Shown here: positions 2,014 to 16,479 of the stretch, piece after piece
How the letters are laid out: each line of letters opens with the position of its first letter
How positions within the stretch are numbered: position 1 is the stretch's first letter
DNA from: a virus
Lineage: Duplodnaviria; Caudoviricetes
Strand: one strand, 5' to 3'
DNA length: 37,548 nt
Virus record (IMG/VR): IMGVR_UViG_3300037634_003268
Coordinates: 1-37,548 of that record
Notes under the pieces: generated by a model
Databases searched by the model: none
Seen by the model: only the letters and a program-made list of their open reading frames with translations
What the model was told of the DNA's origin: nothing
Position numbers and translations under genes: made by a program

Positions 2014-2014
2014 T

Positions 2015-2081
2015 GGGACGAACAGAGTAGCTCTCTTTCCGATACCTTGATTATCGGATAGTCCCTTTATCAATCAAGGAG
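2015..2081 (+). ncRNA. HNH-leader RNA motif copy A (three-way junction plus SD-covering pseudoknot)
   Basis: P1 GGGAC/GTCCC, P2 GAG-TAGCT-CTC, P3 TCCGATA/TATCGGA, loop CCTTGAT pairs with ATCAAGG (2073-2079) overlapping SD AGGAG. Confidence 0.8.
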
Positions 2082-2087
2082 ATAAAC

Positions 2088-2132
2088 GTGAAGTATTGTA
2101 AGAAATGTAATGTGGAGGCTTTTCTTGAATAA
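2088..2132 (+). pseudogene. truncated HNH-like N-terminus (MKYCKKCNVEAFLE*)
   Basis: GTG start behind motif copy A; resembles MKCKNCNE and MKQCEYCSE starts of the two HNH genes. Confidence 0.55.
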
Positions 2133-9964: not shown

Positions 9965-10036
9965 GGACCTATCTTATAGTGGTTATTATACCTGTCTGTC
10001 TAACAGGAGACGAGGGTTCGATTCCCTCTAGGTTCG
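9965..10036 (+). tRNA. tRNA-Asp(GTC)
   Basis: GGACCTA/TAGGTTC, G73; CCTGT-CTGTCTA-ACAGG; GAGGG-TTCGATT-CCCTC. Confidence 0.9.
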
Positions 10037-10037
10037 T

Positions 10038-10107
10038 GGAACGAAAAGGGTAGCTCCCCTTCCAGCACCGTGATTGCTGGATAGTTCCTTAATCCTATCA
10101 CGGAGGT
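10038..10107 (+). ncRNA. HNH-leader RNA motif copy B
   Basis: P1 GGAAC/GTTCC, P2 GGG-TAGCT-CCC, P3 TCCAGCA/TGCTGGA, loop CCGTGAT pairs with ATCACGG (10097-10103) overlapping SD GGAGGT. Confidence 0.85.
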
Positions 10108-10111
10108 AGAT

Positions 10112-10657
10112 ATGAAATGTAAAAATTGTAATGAAATTTTAGTACAAAAAGAAAAAGAAGAGAACAGACACTTTAAGAAAAGACAATTTTGTAATAGAAG
10201 TTGTTCAGCAACATTTAATAATAAGGGAACTAAGAGAGGACCTAAGCCCGTAGATCCAATTAGTATGTGTGCATGTGGAAACGAATTCACCATACATAGA
10301 TTGAAATCCGGAGCTTTATCTAAAACATTCTTATGTCCAGATTGTCGTCCAGCCAAAACTAAAGATGTTGATAATAGAACAAAACAATACTATTATGATA
10401 AAGGTTTAAGTAGTAGACAAGTTTCTGATAGAATAAGAACTATAGCAAGAAGAAGATTCAAAGGTTATGAGTGCGAGGTATGCGATTATGATTTATTCGT
10501 GGATGTTTGTCATATAATTCCCGTAGCAGATTTCGCTAATGATATACCTTTAAAAGTAATAAACAGCAGAAAAAATATCAGATTCCTATGTCCTAATCAT
10601 CATAGGGAACTTGATTCGGGATTTCTTCACGCAAGATCGGAGTTCGATTCTCCGTAA
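10112..10657 (+). CDS. HNH endonuclease with N-terminal Zn-finger repeats (HNH-1)
   Basis: CKNC, FCNRSC, CACG/CPDC; CEVC...DVCHIIP...N.RFLCPNHHRELD. Confidence 0.9.
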   Translation: MKCKNCNEILVQKEKEENRHFKKRQFCNRSCSATFNNKGTKRGPKPVDPISMCACGNEFTIHRLKSGALSKTFLCPDCRPAKTKDVDNRTKQYYYDKGLSSRQVSDRIRTIARRRFKGYECEVCDYDLFVDVCHIIPVADFANDIPLKVINSRKNIRFLCPNHHRELDSGFLHARSEFDSP

Positions 10658-10661
10658 GCTG
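10627..10661 (+). pseudogene. tRNA 3'-half remnant (Asp/Glu-like) embedded in the HNH-1 C-terminus
   Basis: TCAC-GCAAG-AT followed by perfect T arm CGGAG-TTCGATT-CTCCG; no matching 5' half. Confidence 0.6.
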
Positions 10662-10681
10662 GTTTCCCAAAGGAGTAACAA

Positions 10682-10983: not shown

Positions 10984-11051
10984 TGCGGGGAGTTCTGGGA
11001 ACCGTAACCCTCATAAGGTTATCAAGGAAGGTTCGACTCCTTCTCCCGCAA
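10984..11051 (+). tRNA. tRNA-Met(CAT) with very short D loop
   Basis: TGCGGGG/TCCCGCA; GTTC-TGG-GAAC; TAACC-CTCATAA-GGTTA; GAAGG-TTCGACT-CCTTC. Confidence 0.75.
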
Positions 11052-11054
11052 TAC

Positions 11055-11088
11055 AGTGAAGTAGCTTAAGGGTAAAGCGCGACTCTCA
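11055..11088 (+). tRNA. 5' half of split tRNA(CAT) (Met or Ile2)
   Basis: AGTGAAG-TA-GCTT-AAGGGTA-AAGC-G-CGACT-CT-CA; pairs with 3' half at 11778-11815. Confidence 0.9.
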
Positions 11089-11093
11089 AATAT

Positions 11094-11159
11094 AGGACGA
11101 AAAGGGTAGCTCCCCTGTCAACTCTATACAGTTGACTAGTCCTTTTACTCGTATAGGAG
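11094..11159 (+). ncRNA. HNH-leader RNA motif copy C
   Basis: P1 AGGAC/GTCCT, P2 GGG-TAGCT-CCC, P3 GTCAACT/AGTTGAC, loop CTATAC pairs with GTATAG (11151-11156) overlapping SD GGAG. Confidence 0.85.
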
Positions 11160-11167
11160 TGATAAAC

Positions 11168-11704
11168 ATGAAACAGTGCGAATATTGTAGTGAAATTTTA
11201 ATACAAAGAGATACAGAATCAAATTACTATTTTAGAAAAAGAAGATTCTGTAATAAAAGTTGTTCTAATTTTCATTGCAAGAATGGTTTACATAATAAAA
11301 AATTATTAAAAACTAAAACATGCATTAGATGTAATACAGAATTTAACTTAGAAAGAAATGAACAAGGAAAATTCAAAGAAAGAAAAGTTTGTAATGATTG
11401 TCCGACTAACGCTCCAGGTATGGCAAACTATATGACTAAAGGGCAATTATTTGCTAGTAGATCATGGCAAGCAGCAAGAAGCACTATAGTTGATCATGCT
11501 AGAAGATTATATTTTAGTTGTAATGATAATCAGTGCAATGTGAATGAATGCACATACACTAATCATATAGAAGTTGCACACAAGAAAGCAGTGAAGGATT
11601 TTTCTGATGATACGCCAATATTAGATATCAACCATATAGATAACCTTATTGGTCTTTGTCCGAATCATCATTGGGACTACGATAACAGATTATTAAATCT
11701 TTAA
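11168..11704 (+). CDS. HNH endonuclease with N-terminal Zn-finger repeats (HNH-2), paralog of HNH-1
   Basis: CEYC, FCNKSC, CIRC/CNDC; EVAHKK...NHIDNLIGLCPNHHWDYD; ATG 11168 follows GGAG. Confidence 0.9.
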   Translation: MKQCEYCSEILIQRDTESNYYFRKRRFCNKSCSNFHCKNGLHNKKLLKTKTCIRCNTEFNLERNEQGKFKERKVCNDCPTNAPGMANYMTKGQLFASRSWQAARSTIVDHARRLYFSCNDNQCNVNECTYTNHIEVAHKKAVKDFSDDTPILDINHIDNLIGLCPNHHWDYDNRLLNL

Positions 11705-11777
11705 AGCGAAGTGGGGTAGCGGAAACTCGCGAAGATTCATAAACTTCGAGACATCGGTTCGAATCCGATCTTCGCCA
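11705..11777 (+). tRNA. nested intact tRNA(CAT), A1:C72 mismatch (initiator-like)
   Basis: AGCGAAG/CTTCGCC; GGGT/ACTC; CGAAG-ATTCATAAA-CTTCG; ATCGG-TTCGAAT-CCGAT; starts on the base after the HNH stop. Confidence 0.85.
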
Positions 11778-11815
11778 TAAGGTCGTGAGTGTGGGTTCGA
11801 GTCCCACCTTCACTA
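11778..11815 (+). tRNA. 3' half of split tRNA(CAT)
   Basis: TAA-GGTCG-TGAGT-GTGGG-TTCGAGT-CCCAC-CTTCACT-A; CTTCACT is the exact complement of AGTGAAG at 11055. Confidence 0.9.
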
Positions 11816-15560: not shown

Positions 15561-15634
15561 GGAAGTATGACAGAGAGGTAATGTGCCCGGAGGCTTGGGT
15601 TAAACCAACGTTGGTTCGATTCCAATTGCTTCCG
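15561..15634 (+). pseudogene. tRNA-Ser-like gene lacking a canonical anticodon loop
   Basis: GGAAGTA/TGCTTCC, G73, D arm ACA/TGT and T arm GTTGG-TTCGATT-CCAAT intact; centre GCCCGGAGGCTTGGGTTAAACCAAC. Confidence 0.75.
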
Positions 15635-15644
15635 TTGAGGATTT

Positions 15645-15905
15645 ATGAGAAAGAAATTAATTATGAGTTTAGATGCACTTTGTGATTTACTAACTAGTGT
15701 ACATAAAGTACCGGACGATTGTATACTTAATAAAGATATAGTAATTAAACATGTGGAAATGATTCATGAACAAGATGCATTAGTAATACATGTTGATACA
15801 TTAGATGAAATAAAGACTCCAGAATTAGAAATAGCGCAAATGGAAGAATTATATACTGAACAAGATTTAAAAGATCAAAAAGTTGTTGTAATATCAATGA
15901 ACTAA
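15645..15905 (+). CDS. hypothetical protein
   Basis: GAGGA RBS; 86 aa. Confidence 0.7.
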   Translation: MRKKLIMSLDALCDLLTSVHKVPDDCILNKDIVIKHVEMIHEQDALVIHVDTLDEIKTPELEIAQMEELYTEQDLKDQKVVVISMN

Positions 15906-15910
15906 AACTT

Positions 15911-15945
15911 GGAAGCGACCCGGAAGGATGAGGACACAGTCTTGA
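15911..15945 (+). pseudogene. 5' half of tRNA-Ser(TGA)
   Basis: GGAAGCG...ACAGT-CTTGA, matches GGAAGTA...GCAGT-CTTGA of the intact tRNA-Ser at 16397. Confidence 0.7.
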
Positions 15946-16397
15946 TAAAGTATACAGAAGAACAACTTAGGTGTATTATCCCCAGATCTTATACTTGGGC
16001 AAGTGTCTGTAGGGAATTAGGAATACCAACGGCTGGAGGAAGTCAAGCTCATTTGAAATCTAGAGCTGAAAAATATGGTATAGATTATTCTCACTTCAAG
16101 AGTAGAGCATGGAACAAAGGTTTAAAGGTACCTCATAGAAATATTGAAGACATATTAGTAAAAAGGACAAAAGGTAATAGACAAAGTGCTCATATGTTGA
16201 GAAGAGCATTAGATGAATTCGGAATATCATATAATTGTTTCGAATGTGGTGCATCTGAATGGAGAGGCAAACCATTACGATTAGAAGTAGATCATATTAA
16301 CGGAAATAAATTAGATGATAGAATAGAGAATCTAAGATATATGTGTCCTAATTGTCACTCTCAGACAGACACATATAAGAACAAAGTCAGAAATTAG
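15942..16397 (+). CDS. HNH endonuclease (HNH-3), different subfamily with N-terminal HTH-like region
   Basis: CFECGASEWRGKPLRLEVDHINGNKLDDRIENLRYMCPNCHSQT; probable TTG start 7 nt after GAGGA. Confidence 0.9.
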   Translation: MIKYTEEQLRCIIPRSYTWASVCRELGIPTAGGSQAHLKSRAEKYGIDYSHFKSRAWNKGLKVPHRNIEDILVKRTKGNRQSAHMLRRALDEFGISYNCFECGASEWRGKPLRLEVDHINGNKLDDRIENLRYMCPNCHSQTDTYKNKVRN

Positions 16398-16479
16398 GAA
16401 GTACGGTCATTGGCGCGACAAGCAGTCTTGAAAACTGTCACTCCGTAAGGAGCTGTTGGTTCAATTCCAGCTACTTCCG
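16397..16479 (+). tRNA. tRNA-Ser(TGA)
   Basis: GGAAGTA/TACTTCC, G73; GCAGT-CTTGAAA-ACTGT; long variable arm CTCC-GTAA-GGAG; first G is the last base of HNH-3 TAG. Confidence 0.92.

What the first reader, a model, noticed from the sequence alone, without database searches (positions are those of the whole stretch)
11055..11815. Russian-doll tRNA: a tRNA(CAT) split in its anticodon by an HNH cassette carrying its own intact tRNA(CAT)
Seen: the 5' half (11055-11088, ends CGACT-CT-CA) and 3' half (11778-11815, TAA-GGTCG...CTTCACT-A) rejoin into an undegraded cloverleaf with a 7/7 acceptor stem. The 689 bp between them are fully accounted for by 5 nt, a structured leader, an HNH ORF and a complete tRNA(CAT). 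That inner tRNA starts on the base after the stop codon and ends exactly at the junction, with CA at both borders. Known: bacterial tRNA(CAU) genes can carry group I introns, but there is no room for a catalytic core here and no border choice gives U|...G. No integrase or transposase is present. Inference: either an intron-less homing element that destroys its tRNA target and supplies a cleavage-resistant replacement, or a new kind of tRNA intron. In the second model, 3' processing of the inner tRNA frees the outer 3' half precisely at TAA for ligation.
Basis: partly seen in the sequence, partly recalled or inferred. Interest (0 to 1): 0.92.

Follow-up and report, generated by a model that had tools for sequence, protein, structure and literature searches.

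The report
HNH-plus-tRNA cassette splitting phage Met tRNA
In a marine bacterial virus, a gene for a predicted DNA-cutting enzyme, together with the tRNA gene next to it, sits inside the anticodon of another CAT-anticodon tRNA gene, which it has most likely broken, although an unexplained kind of tRNA splicing seen in related phage layouts is not excluded.

Summary
Confirmed. The two halves rejoin into a clean tRNA(CAT), far beyond chance, and a run not marked as a possible source bridges both junctions. The 689-bp insert is a folded leader, an HNH gene and an odd, initiator-like tRNA(CAT); there is no ribozyme. The HNH belongs to a lineage tied to tRNA(CAT) genes: relatives either abut such a tRNA or sit inside its anticodon loop. 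Best reading (0.6): a homing-endonuclease cassette with its linked tRNA was copied into its own predicted cut site and broke the gene, probably recently. 'Replacement' is doubtful, because the inner tRNA looks initiator-type with a deformed anticodon arm and the outer looks elongator-type. Rival (0.25): RNA-level removal, as suspected for Lak-phage tRNA introns, which also end in a tRNA-like unit at the 3' junction. This insert lacks their 5' hairpin and the C after position 73. I found five more nuclease-plus-tRNA nests; four have damaged outer anticodon arms. No empty allele and no RNA evidence were found. The scan noted this design before in at least five other genomes; my ten literature searches did not find it described.

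The parts
10984..11051 (+). Neighbouring tRNA(CAT), initiator-like acceptor, short D arm; ends 3 nt before the split gene
   Evidence: ARAGORN; not found by Rfam
11055..11088 (+). 5' half of the outer, elongator-type tRNA(CAT) (Met or Ile2 not determined)
11089..11093 (+). 5-nt unpaired start of the insert (the border can slide by 2 nt because of the CA repeat)
11094..11167 (+). Conserved leader: three-way junction whose third-helix loop (11124-11129) is complementary to 11151-11156 beside the ribosome-binding site (predicted pseudoknot); found before endonuclease-like genes in many phages
   Evidence: no Rfam match
11168..11704 (+). 178-aa zinc-finger + HNH endonuclease gene; conserved residues H138, N155, N159, C164, H168 present
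   Evidence: Pfam HNH_2 E 3.6e-4, just under cut-off; PHROG 8446; alignment A1; fold search gave only weak HNH-nuclease rows, none at E<=0.001
11705..11777 (+). Inner tRNA(CAT): 1:72 mismatch and purine11:pyrimidine24 (initiator-type features, recalled), deformed anticodon arm, no encoded CCA
11778..11815 (+). 3' half of the outer tRNA(CAT)

Best explanation
This is a cassette of a folded leader, an HNH endonuclease gene and a linked tRNA(CAT) lying inside the anticodon loop of another phage tRNA(CAT) gene, which it most likely entered at the enzyme's own predicted cut site and probably inactivated. Inferred steps: (1) the HNH cuts the DNA of intact tRNA(CAT) genes in the anticodon loop; (2) the break was repaired by copying a leader-HNH-tRNA block, the commonest layout of this family, using the short CA match that tRNA 3' ends share with the CAT loop; (3) the split gene and the inner tRNA's altered anticodon arm would no longer be cut, so the allele could spread by intronless homing between co-infecting phages; (4) the loss is tolerated because host tRNAs or other phage tRNAs cover it, and the halves are pristine because the event is recent. 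The inner tRNA is better seen as a passenger than as a like-for-like replacement.
For: The family is tied to tRNA(CAT). Of 116 distinct family loci, 44 have an ARAGORN tRNA right after the gene (21 of the 44 are CAT) and 14 pass a strict split-tRNA test. In a quick tree the window enzyme falls in a 28-row group (SH-aLRT 90) holding 23 of 30 split-tRNA(CAT) members, inside a 76-row group (85) holding 30 of 30 split and 28 of 30 CAT-adjacent members. In the 20 split relatives parsed, only a 34|35 border restores CAT in all, and 34|35 is one of three borders possible here. The leader precedes endonuclease-like ORFs (judged by eye) in 28 of 29 distinct viral loci, only 3 of them near tRNAs, so it belongs to the nuclease gene, not to splicing. 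Five other nuclease + whole-tRNA nests were found (L380, L398, L403, L407, L411), with HNH-like or DUF559 nucleases; four have damaged outer anticodon arms. An ORF-less remnant with decayed halves exists (L245). Precedent: SegB homes by cutting tRNA genes (PMC2330249 abstract; PMC13096335 sections 9-10).
Against: The outer halves show no decay and score higher than the inner tRNA (122 vs 114). Of 20 HNH-split relatives, 17 keep all 11 cross-half pairs, with two-sided changes at seven positions; L078/L079 differ by a compensated 27:43 pair across a 98%-identical insert. That fits repeated precise homing but also selection on a spliced product. The inner 3' end sits where Lak-type tRNA-like units end. 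No empty allele was found. Cleavage and target are untested. The tree is short (90 columns), its support is below 95, and the split labels were set by hand.
Confidence: 0.6

Rival explanations
1. The insert is a mobile, ribozyme-free tRNA intron of the Lak type. The inner tRNA-like unit acts as a processing signal whose 3' cut frees the outer 3' half, a second cut frees the 5' half, and a protein RNA ligase joins them; the HNH spreads the intron.
For: All four Lak intron types in the part of Table S6 that I read end, by my reading, in an acceptor + T-arm unit at the 3' junction and start with a small hairpin. A tandem-T-arm scan gave 15 of 98 distinct loci with well-paired split tRNAs; 14 of 15 have 3-4 nt between inner position 73 and outer position 39, and the window has 3. 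Sister pairs keep the outer halves while the inserts diverge (L389/L447, L393/L412, L397/L457). L397 carries an HNH inside such an insert, and L356 is a tRNA(CAT) split at 35|36. Here the outer is pristine and the inner is deformed, as in that class.
Against: All 14 have a C after inner position 73 and 12-13 (by eye) have a hairpin at the 5' junction; the window has neither. The inner tRNA's 5' end lies 616 nt from the 5' junction, so no known activity would make that cut precisely. The scan pattern itself limits the spacing. In an unconstrained scan, orphan T-arms were only weakly enriched at 38-43 nt (16 of 47, about 9 expected). Splicing has not been shown for any member, Lak included, in the passages read.
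Confidence: 0.25
2. A one-off rearrangement: an endonuclease break in the tRNA array was mended by short-homology recombination that pasted in a neighbouring block. The allele is not a homing unit and the match of enzyme and site is incidental.
For: The array holds three HNH genes, three leader copies and an orphan T-arm. Orphan T-arms after intact tRNAs are common at many spacings (47 of 123). SegB breaks drive recombination-dependent amplification of tRNA regions.
Against: The insertion sits in the same loop that 30 family members split, and both ends fall at CA.
Confidence: 0.12
3. Assembly artefact, or a known intron class (group I/II).
For: The contig is metagenomic and tRNA T-arms are repetitive.
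Against: Junctions are bridged in run X4 (both) and X6 (left), with no joints in 8 runs; no Rfam intron match and no room for a core.
Confidence: 0.03

Closest known systems
Free-standing homing endonucleases of phage tRNA arrays: T4/T6 SegB, intronless homing (PMC2330249, abstract and outline; PMC13096335, abstract and sections 9-10; PMC3984707, passages)
   Same: Endonuclease gene in a phage tRNA cluster, no ribozyme, predicted to cut tRNA genes and to spread with neighbouring tRNA genes.
   Different: SegB is GIY-YIG and recognises the T-loop motif; in the texts read it is not described as splitting a tRNA gene. This is an HNH tied to the CAT anticodon loop and lies inside a tRNA gene.
'Enigmatic' tRNA introns of Lak megaphages (Devoto et al. 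2019, PMC6784885: passages and part 4 of 8 of supplementary file 3; preprint 10.1101/356790: passages)
   Same: Phage tRNA split in the anticodon loop by a ribozyme-free insert that ends in a tRNA or tRNA-like unit at the 3' junction; the nested tRNA in tRNA-Thr is stated in the paper.
   Different: The Lak inserts read are about 80-115 nt, ORF-less, start with a hairpin and end in a degenerate unit. This one is 689 nt, carries a leader and an HNH gene, and lacks that hairpin.
Cyanobacterial tRNA-fMet group I intron with an anticodon-specific endonuclease (Bonocora and Shub 2001; seen only as a title in the reference list of PMC3984707; the name I-Ssp6803I is recalled)
   Same: Homing endonuclease aimed at the anticodon region of a tRNA(CAT) gene.
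   Different: It rides a self-splicing group I intron; there is none here, and the nuclease family differs (recalled).

Membership tests
Free-standing homing endonuclease (intronless homing) | Endonuclease domain with catalytic residues | tested here: met
   HNH_2 and PHROG 8446 matches, conserved His/Asn/Cys; fold search inconclusive
Free-standing homing endonuclease (intronless homing) | Not inside a self-splicing intron or intein | tested here: met
Free-standing homing endonuclease (intronless homing) | Empty allele exists in relatives | tested here: inconclusive
   None found; no close relative of the phage was reached
Free-standing homing endonuclease (intronless homing) | Cuts the empty allele but not the occupied one; biased inheritance | not testable with these tools
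   Target inferred only from gene context
Group I tRNA intron | Catalytic core P3-P9 | tested here: not met
   No Rfam match; insert fully accounted for
Group I tRNA intron | Exon ends in U, intron ends in G | tested here: not met
   None of the three borders fits
Lak-type phage tRNA intron (features drawn) | Insert in the anticodon loop, halves fully paired, no ribozyme | tested here: met
Lak-type phage tRNA intron (features drawn) | tRNA-like unit ending at the 3' junction | tested here: met
   3 nt between inner 73 and outer 39, as in 7 of 15
Lak-type phage tRNA intron (features drawn) | Hairpin at the 5' junction and a C after inner position 73 | tested here: not met
   5 unpaired nt and then the nuclease leader; T follows position 73
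Lak-type phage tRNA intron (features drawn) | Spliced product | not testable with these tools
   No usable RNA run
Integrase/transposase element at a tRNA att site | Recombinase gene and a restored target tRNA | tested here: not met
   No such gene among 38 window ORFs scanned with PHROGs; both halves are left split. The contig is about 18% complete

The most novel reading that the evidence does not exclude
A homing, ribozyme-free tRNA intron of bacterial viruses: tRNA-processing enzymes acting on the nested tRNA, plus a protein RNA ligase, excise a whole gene cassette from the anticodon loop, giving two tRNAs and an HNH mRNA from one transcript. It would be the nuclease-bearing form of the Lak-type introns, and the HNH-only splits of initiator tRNA genes would belong to the same system.
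Probability: 0.22. Interest if true: 0.9.

Novelty: new variant of a known kind. Interest (0 to 1): 0.6.

Why it matters
If the best reading holds, it shows how a homing nuclease can occupy its own target in a tRNA gene without any splicing element. It also defines an HNH lineage specialised on tRNA(CAT) anticodons whose target can be tested with one short substrate. If the rival holds, bacteria infected by phages splice tRNAs by an undescribed protein-dependent route, which would explain the Lak introns left open since 2019. Such split genes are missed or mis-called by routine tRNA annotation.

Tried and rejected
Empty allele: single-protein locus scans with the HNH and with a neighbouring ORF found nothing; an exact 5'-half pattern gave 0 viral hits; distant blastn against cultured phages gave only short tRNA matches; no joint in 8 runs. 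Expression: no RNA holder listed; X18 does not cover the element; not used as evidence. RNA ligases (Rnl1, RtcB, Rnl2-type): none in this 18%-complete contig; an Rnl2-type gene lies about 1.4 kb from the L361 split tRNA in 1 of the 2 other records that could be searched (2 more not held); the Rnl1 control rang nowhere; inconclusive. A pattern for the 5' hairpin gave mostly chance hits: 1 split of 91 distinct, plus L245 seen by eye. A loose pattern for other CAT tRNAs in relatives was uninformative, and the Rfam list was not typed by anticodon. Structure model pLDDT 76, pTM 0.49; no significant fold or PDB sequence match. Promoter scan at chance level. Precise abutment as a general rule: only weakly supported. 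The theta-ribozyme paper has no occurrence of intron, HNH, homing or endonuclease (PMC10879173); the second Lak paper adds nothing on intron mechanism (PMC8346664 passages). Of the 24 loci, L410, L491, L498 and L511 look like chance and were not counted as nests.

Full report
Setting. The window is a 37.5-kb fragment, about 18% complete, of a phage with terminase, portal, head and tail-sheath genes. The runs that hold it are marine metagenomes. It carries 14 ARAGORN tRNAs plus a tRNA at 9965-10036 found by Rfam, and three HNH genes.

The observation. The halves 11055-11088 and 11778-11815 rejoin into a cloverleaf that scores second of 16 tRNAs tested. No shuffle (0 of 1000) and no other tRNA 5' half (0 of 1263) pairs as well with the 3' half. 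Contigs of run X4 bridge both junctions and X6 the left one; none of 8 runs shows a joint or a variant in the element. The CA repeat lets the border lie at 33|34, 34|35 or 35|36; none gives the U and G of a group I intron, and Rfam finds no intron.

The parts. The leader is a three-way junction (z -2.6), repeated before the upstream HNH gene at 10041 and, as a variant, near 2016. In 29 distinct viral loci it precedes endonuclease-like ORFs of several kinds (28 of 29, judged by eye; one cut off), with tRNAs nearby in only 3. In 29 of 29 copies tested, the loop of its third helix is complementary over 5-8 nt to the stretch beside the ribosome-binding site (mean 6.1 against 4.0 for mismatched pairs). 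It is therefore a likely translational control element of nuclease genes, not a splicing signal. The protein is a zinc-finger HNH with conserved core residues. The inner tRNA has a 1:72 mismatch and a purine11:pyrimidine24 pair, which I recall as initiator features, and its closest fetched relatives are initiator-like. It also has a deformed anticodon arm. The outer tRNA is elongator-type, and the two are no closer than typical CAT tRNAs (score 42; means 37 and 36 over 102). A like-for-like replacement is therefore doubtful, and a third tRNA(CAT) sits 3 nt upstream.

The HNH family. Locus scans with the family alignment gave 167 loci analysed, 116 distinct, 6 without the motif; the 21 weak genome hits were left out. 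Of these, 44 have an ARAGORN tRNA right behind the gene (21 CAT) and 14 pass a strict test for a tRNA(CAT) split by the HNH alone, the stop codon doubling as the loop's last bases. By hand I labelled 30 as split, including three decayed ones. In 20 of the 30 both halves could be parsed: 17 keep all 11 cross-half pairs, with two-sided changes at seven positions, and only a 34|35 border gives CAT in all 20. Others are decayed (L076, L188, L125, L197; ORF-less remnant L245). In a quick tree the window enzyme groups with 23 of the 30 (support 90, not starred). So the enzyme's likely target is the CAT anticodon loop, where it now sits. L078 and L079 share a 98%-identical insert but differ at 5 of 74 tRNA positions, including a compensated pair across the insert. 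That rate favours precise homing into different alleles over plain descent, but it does not exclude selection on a spliced product.

Other nested tRNAs. A scan for two T-arms in tandem found a matching outer 5' half in 24 of 81 loci tested (null 44 of 1605). Three kinds appear. (a) Short inserts with a 5' hairpin and a degenerate tRNA-like unit, then a C, with near-perfect outer halves; these match the Lak introns as I read them in Table S6 of PMC6784885, and L397 carries an HNH inside one. (b) A tRNA or tRNA-like unit placed directly in the loop (L098, L350, L484). (c) Nuclease gene plus whole tRNA, as here (L380, L398, L403, L407, L411). Four of these five have damaged outer anticodon arms. 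L407 keeps its stem and can be read as an outer Lys(TTT) around an inner Leu(TAA), again not a replacement; L380 is a CAT-in-CAT nest. The window has the gene content of (c) and the state of preservation of (a). The first scan's pattern limits the spacing, and an unconstrained scan showed only weak enrichment of close abutment (16 of 47, about 9 expected).

Mechanism. Shown: the anatomy, the family's tie to tRNA(CAT), the recurrence of the layout. Inferred: cleavage in the CAT loop, repair that copied a leader-HNH-tRNA block through short matches at tRNA ends, resistance of the new allele, homing, and loss of the outer tRNA (0.6). In this phage the Ala tRNA end is followed by the same bases as the inner tRNA, so the right-hand match may have been longer than CA; that is conjecture. 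The splicing rival (0.25) rests on the pristine halves, the deformed inner tRNA and the Lak-type geometry. It lacks the 5' hairpin, the C after position 73 and any route to a precise 5' cut.

What is known. SegB homing in tRNA arrays, HNH genes in tRNA clusters (PMC6409571 and PMC8421152 passages) and a tRNA nested in a Lak tRNA intron are published. Ten searches did not list a paper on a nuclease-plus-tRNA cassette splitting a tRNA gene, on this HNH lineage or on the leader. The library lacks most subscription papers, bioRxiv supplements are closed, and I read only part 4 of 8 of the Lak supplement. Earlier notes of this scan describe the same design in at least five other genomes, and ribozyme-free tRNA inserts in several more. 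They are unchecked AI notes and prompted my tandem-T-arm scan; my counts come from my own calls.

Verdict. Real, recurrent, and a new variant of intronless homing, with an open and testable chance of being an undescribed tRNA intron. Interest 0.6.

Noticed in passing
window 11094-11167, 10038-10111, about 2016-2087; L001-L040: Conserved leader RNA of phage endonuclease-like genes: three-way junction plus a covarying loop-to-ribosome-site pairing in 29 of 29 copies; no Rfam match.
   Followed up: partly
window 10112-10664: Second HNH of the same family: its leader starts right after tRNA-Asp (9965-10036) and its ORF runs into an orphan T-arm with no matching 5' half seen.
   Followed up: partly
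window 2014-2130: Third leader copy directly after tRNA-Thr, followed by a truncated zinc-finger ORF start; probably a decayed cassette.
   Followed up: no
window 15561-16479: Degenerate tRNA-like sequence at 15561-15634 and a third, unrelated HNH gene (15909-16397) whose stop abuts tRNA-Ser.
   Followed up: no
L047, L066, L068, L072, L078, L079, L155, L156, L164, L181, L182, L184, L185, L196 and others: Initiator-type tRNA(CAT) genes split at 34|35 by the HNH alone, with a conserved folded start resembling the Lak intron hairpin; 17 of 20 keep all cross-half pairs.
   Followed up: partly
L354, L356, L361, L369, L370, L376, L382, L389, L393, L397, L412, L436, L447, L456, L457: Lak-type inserts in Tyr, Met, Thr, Lys, Phe and Arg tRNA genes, ending in an acceptor + T-arm unit; sister pairs conserve the halves while the inserts diverge; an Rnl2-type ligase gene lies about 1.4 kb from the L361 site.
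   Followed up: partly
L098:2824-3012; L350; L484: A tRNA or tRNA-like unit placed directly in the anticodon loop of another tRNA; in L098 it starts at the 34|35 border and ends in CCA.
   Followed up: partly
L046, L068, L072, L079: Sequences resembling theta ribozymes (recalled motif, not tested) directly after the 3' halves of split tRNAs.
   Followed up: no
L115, L126, L127: Family HNH genes in antisense orientation inside split tRNA genes.
   Followed up: no
L090: Family HNH followed by a tRNA(CAT) 5' half and what looks like a group I intron; not tested.
   Followed up: no
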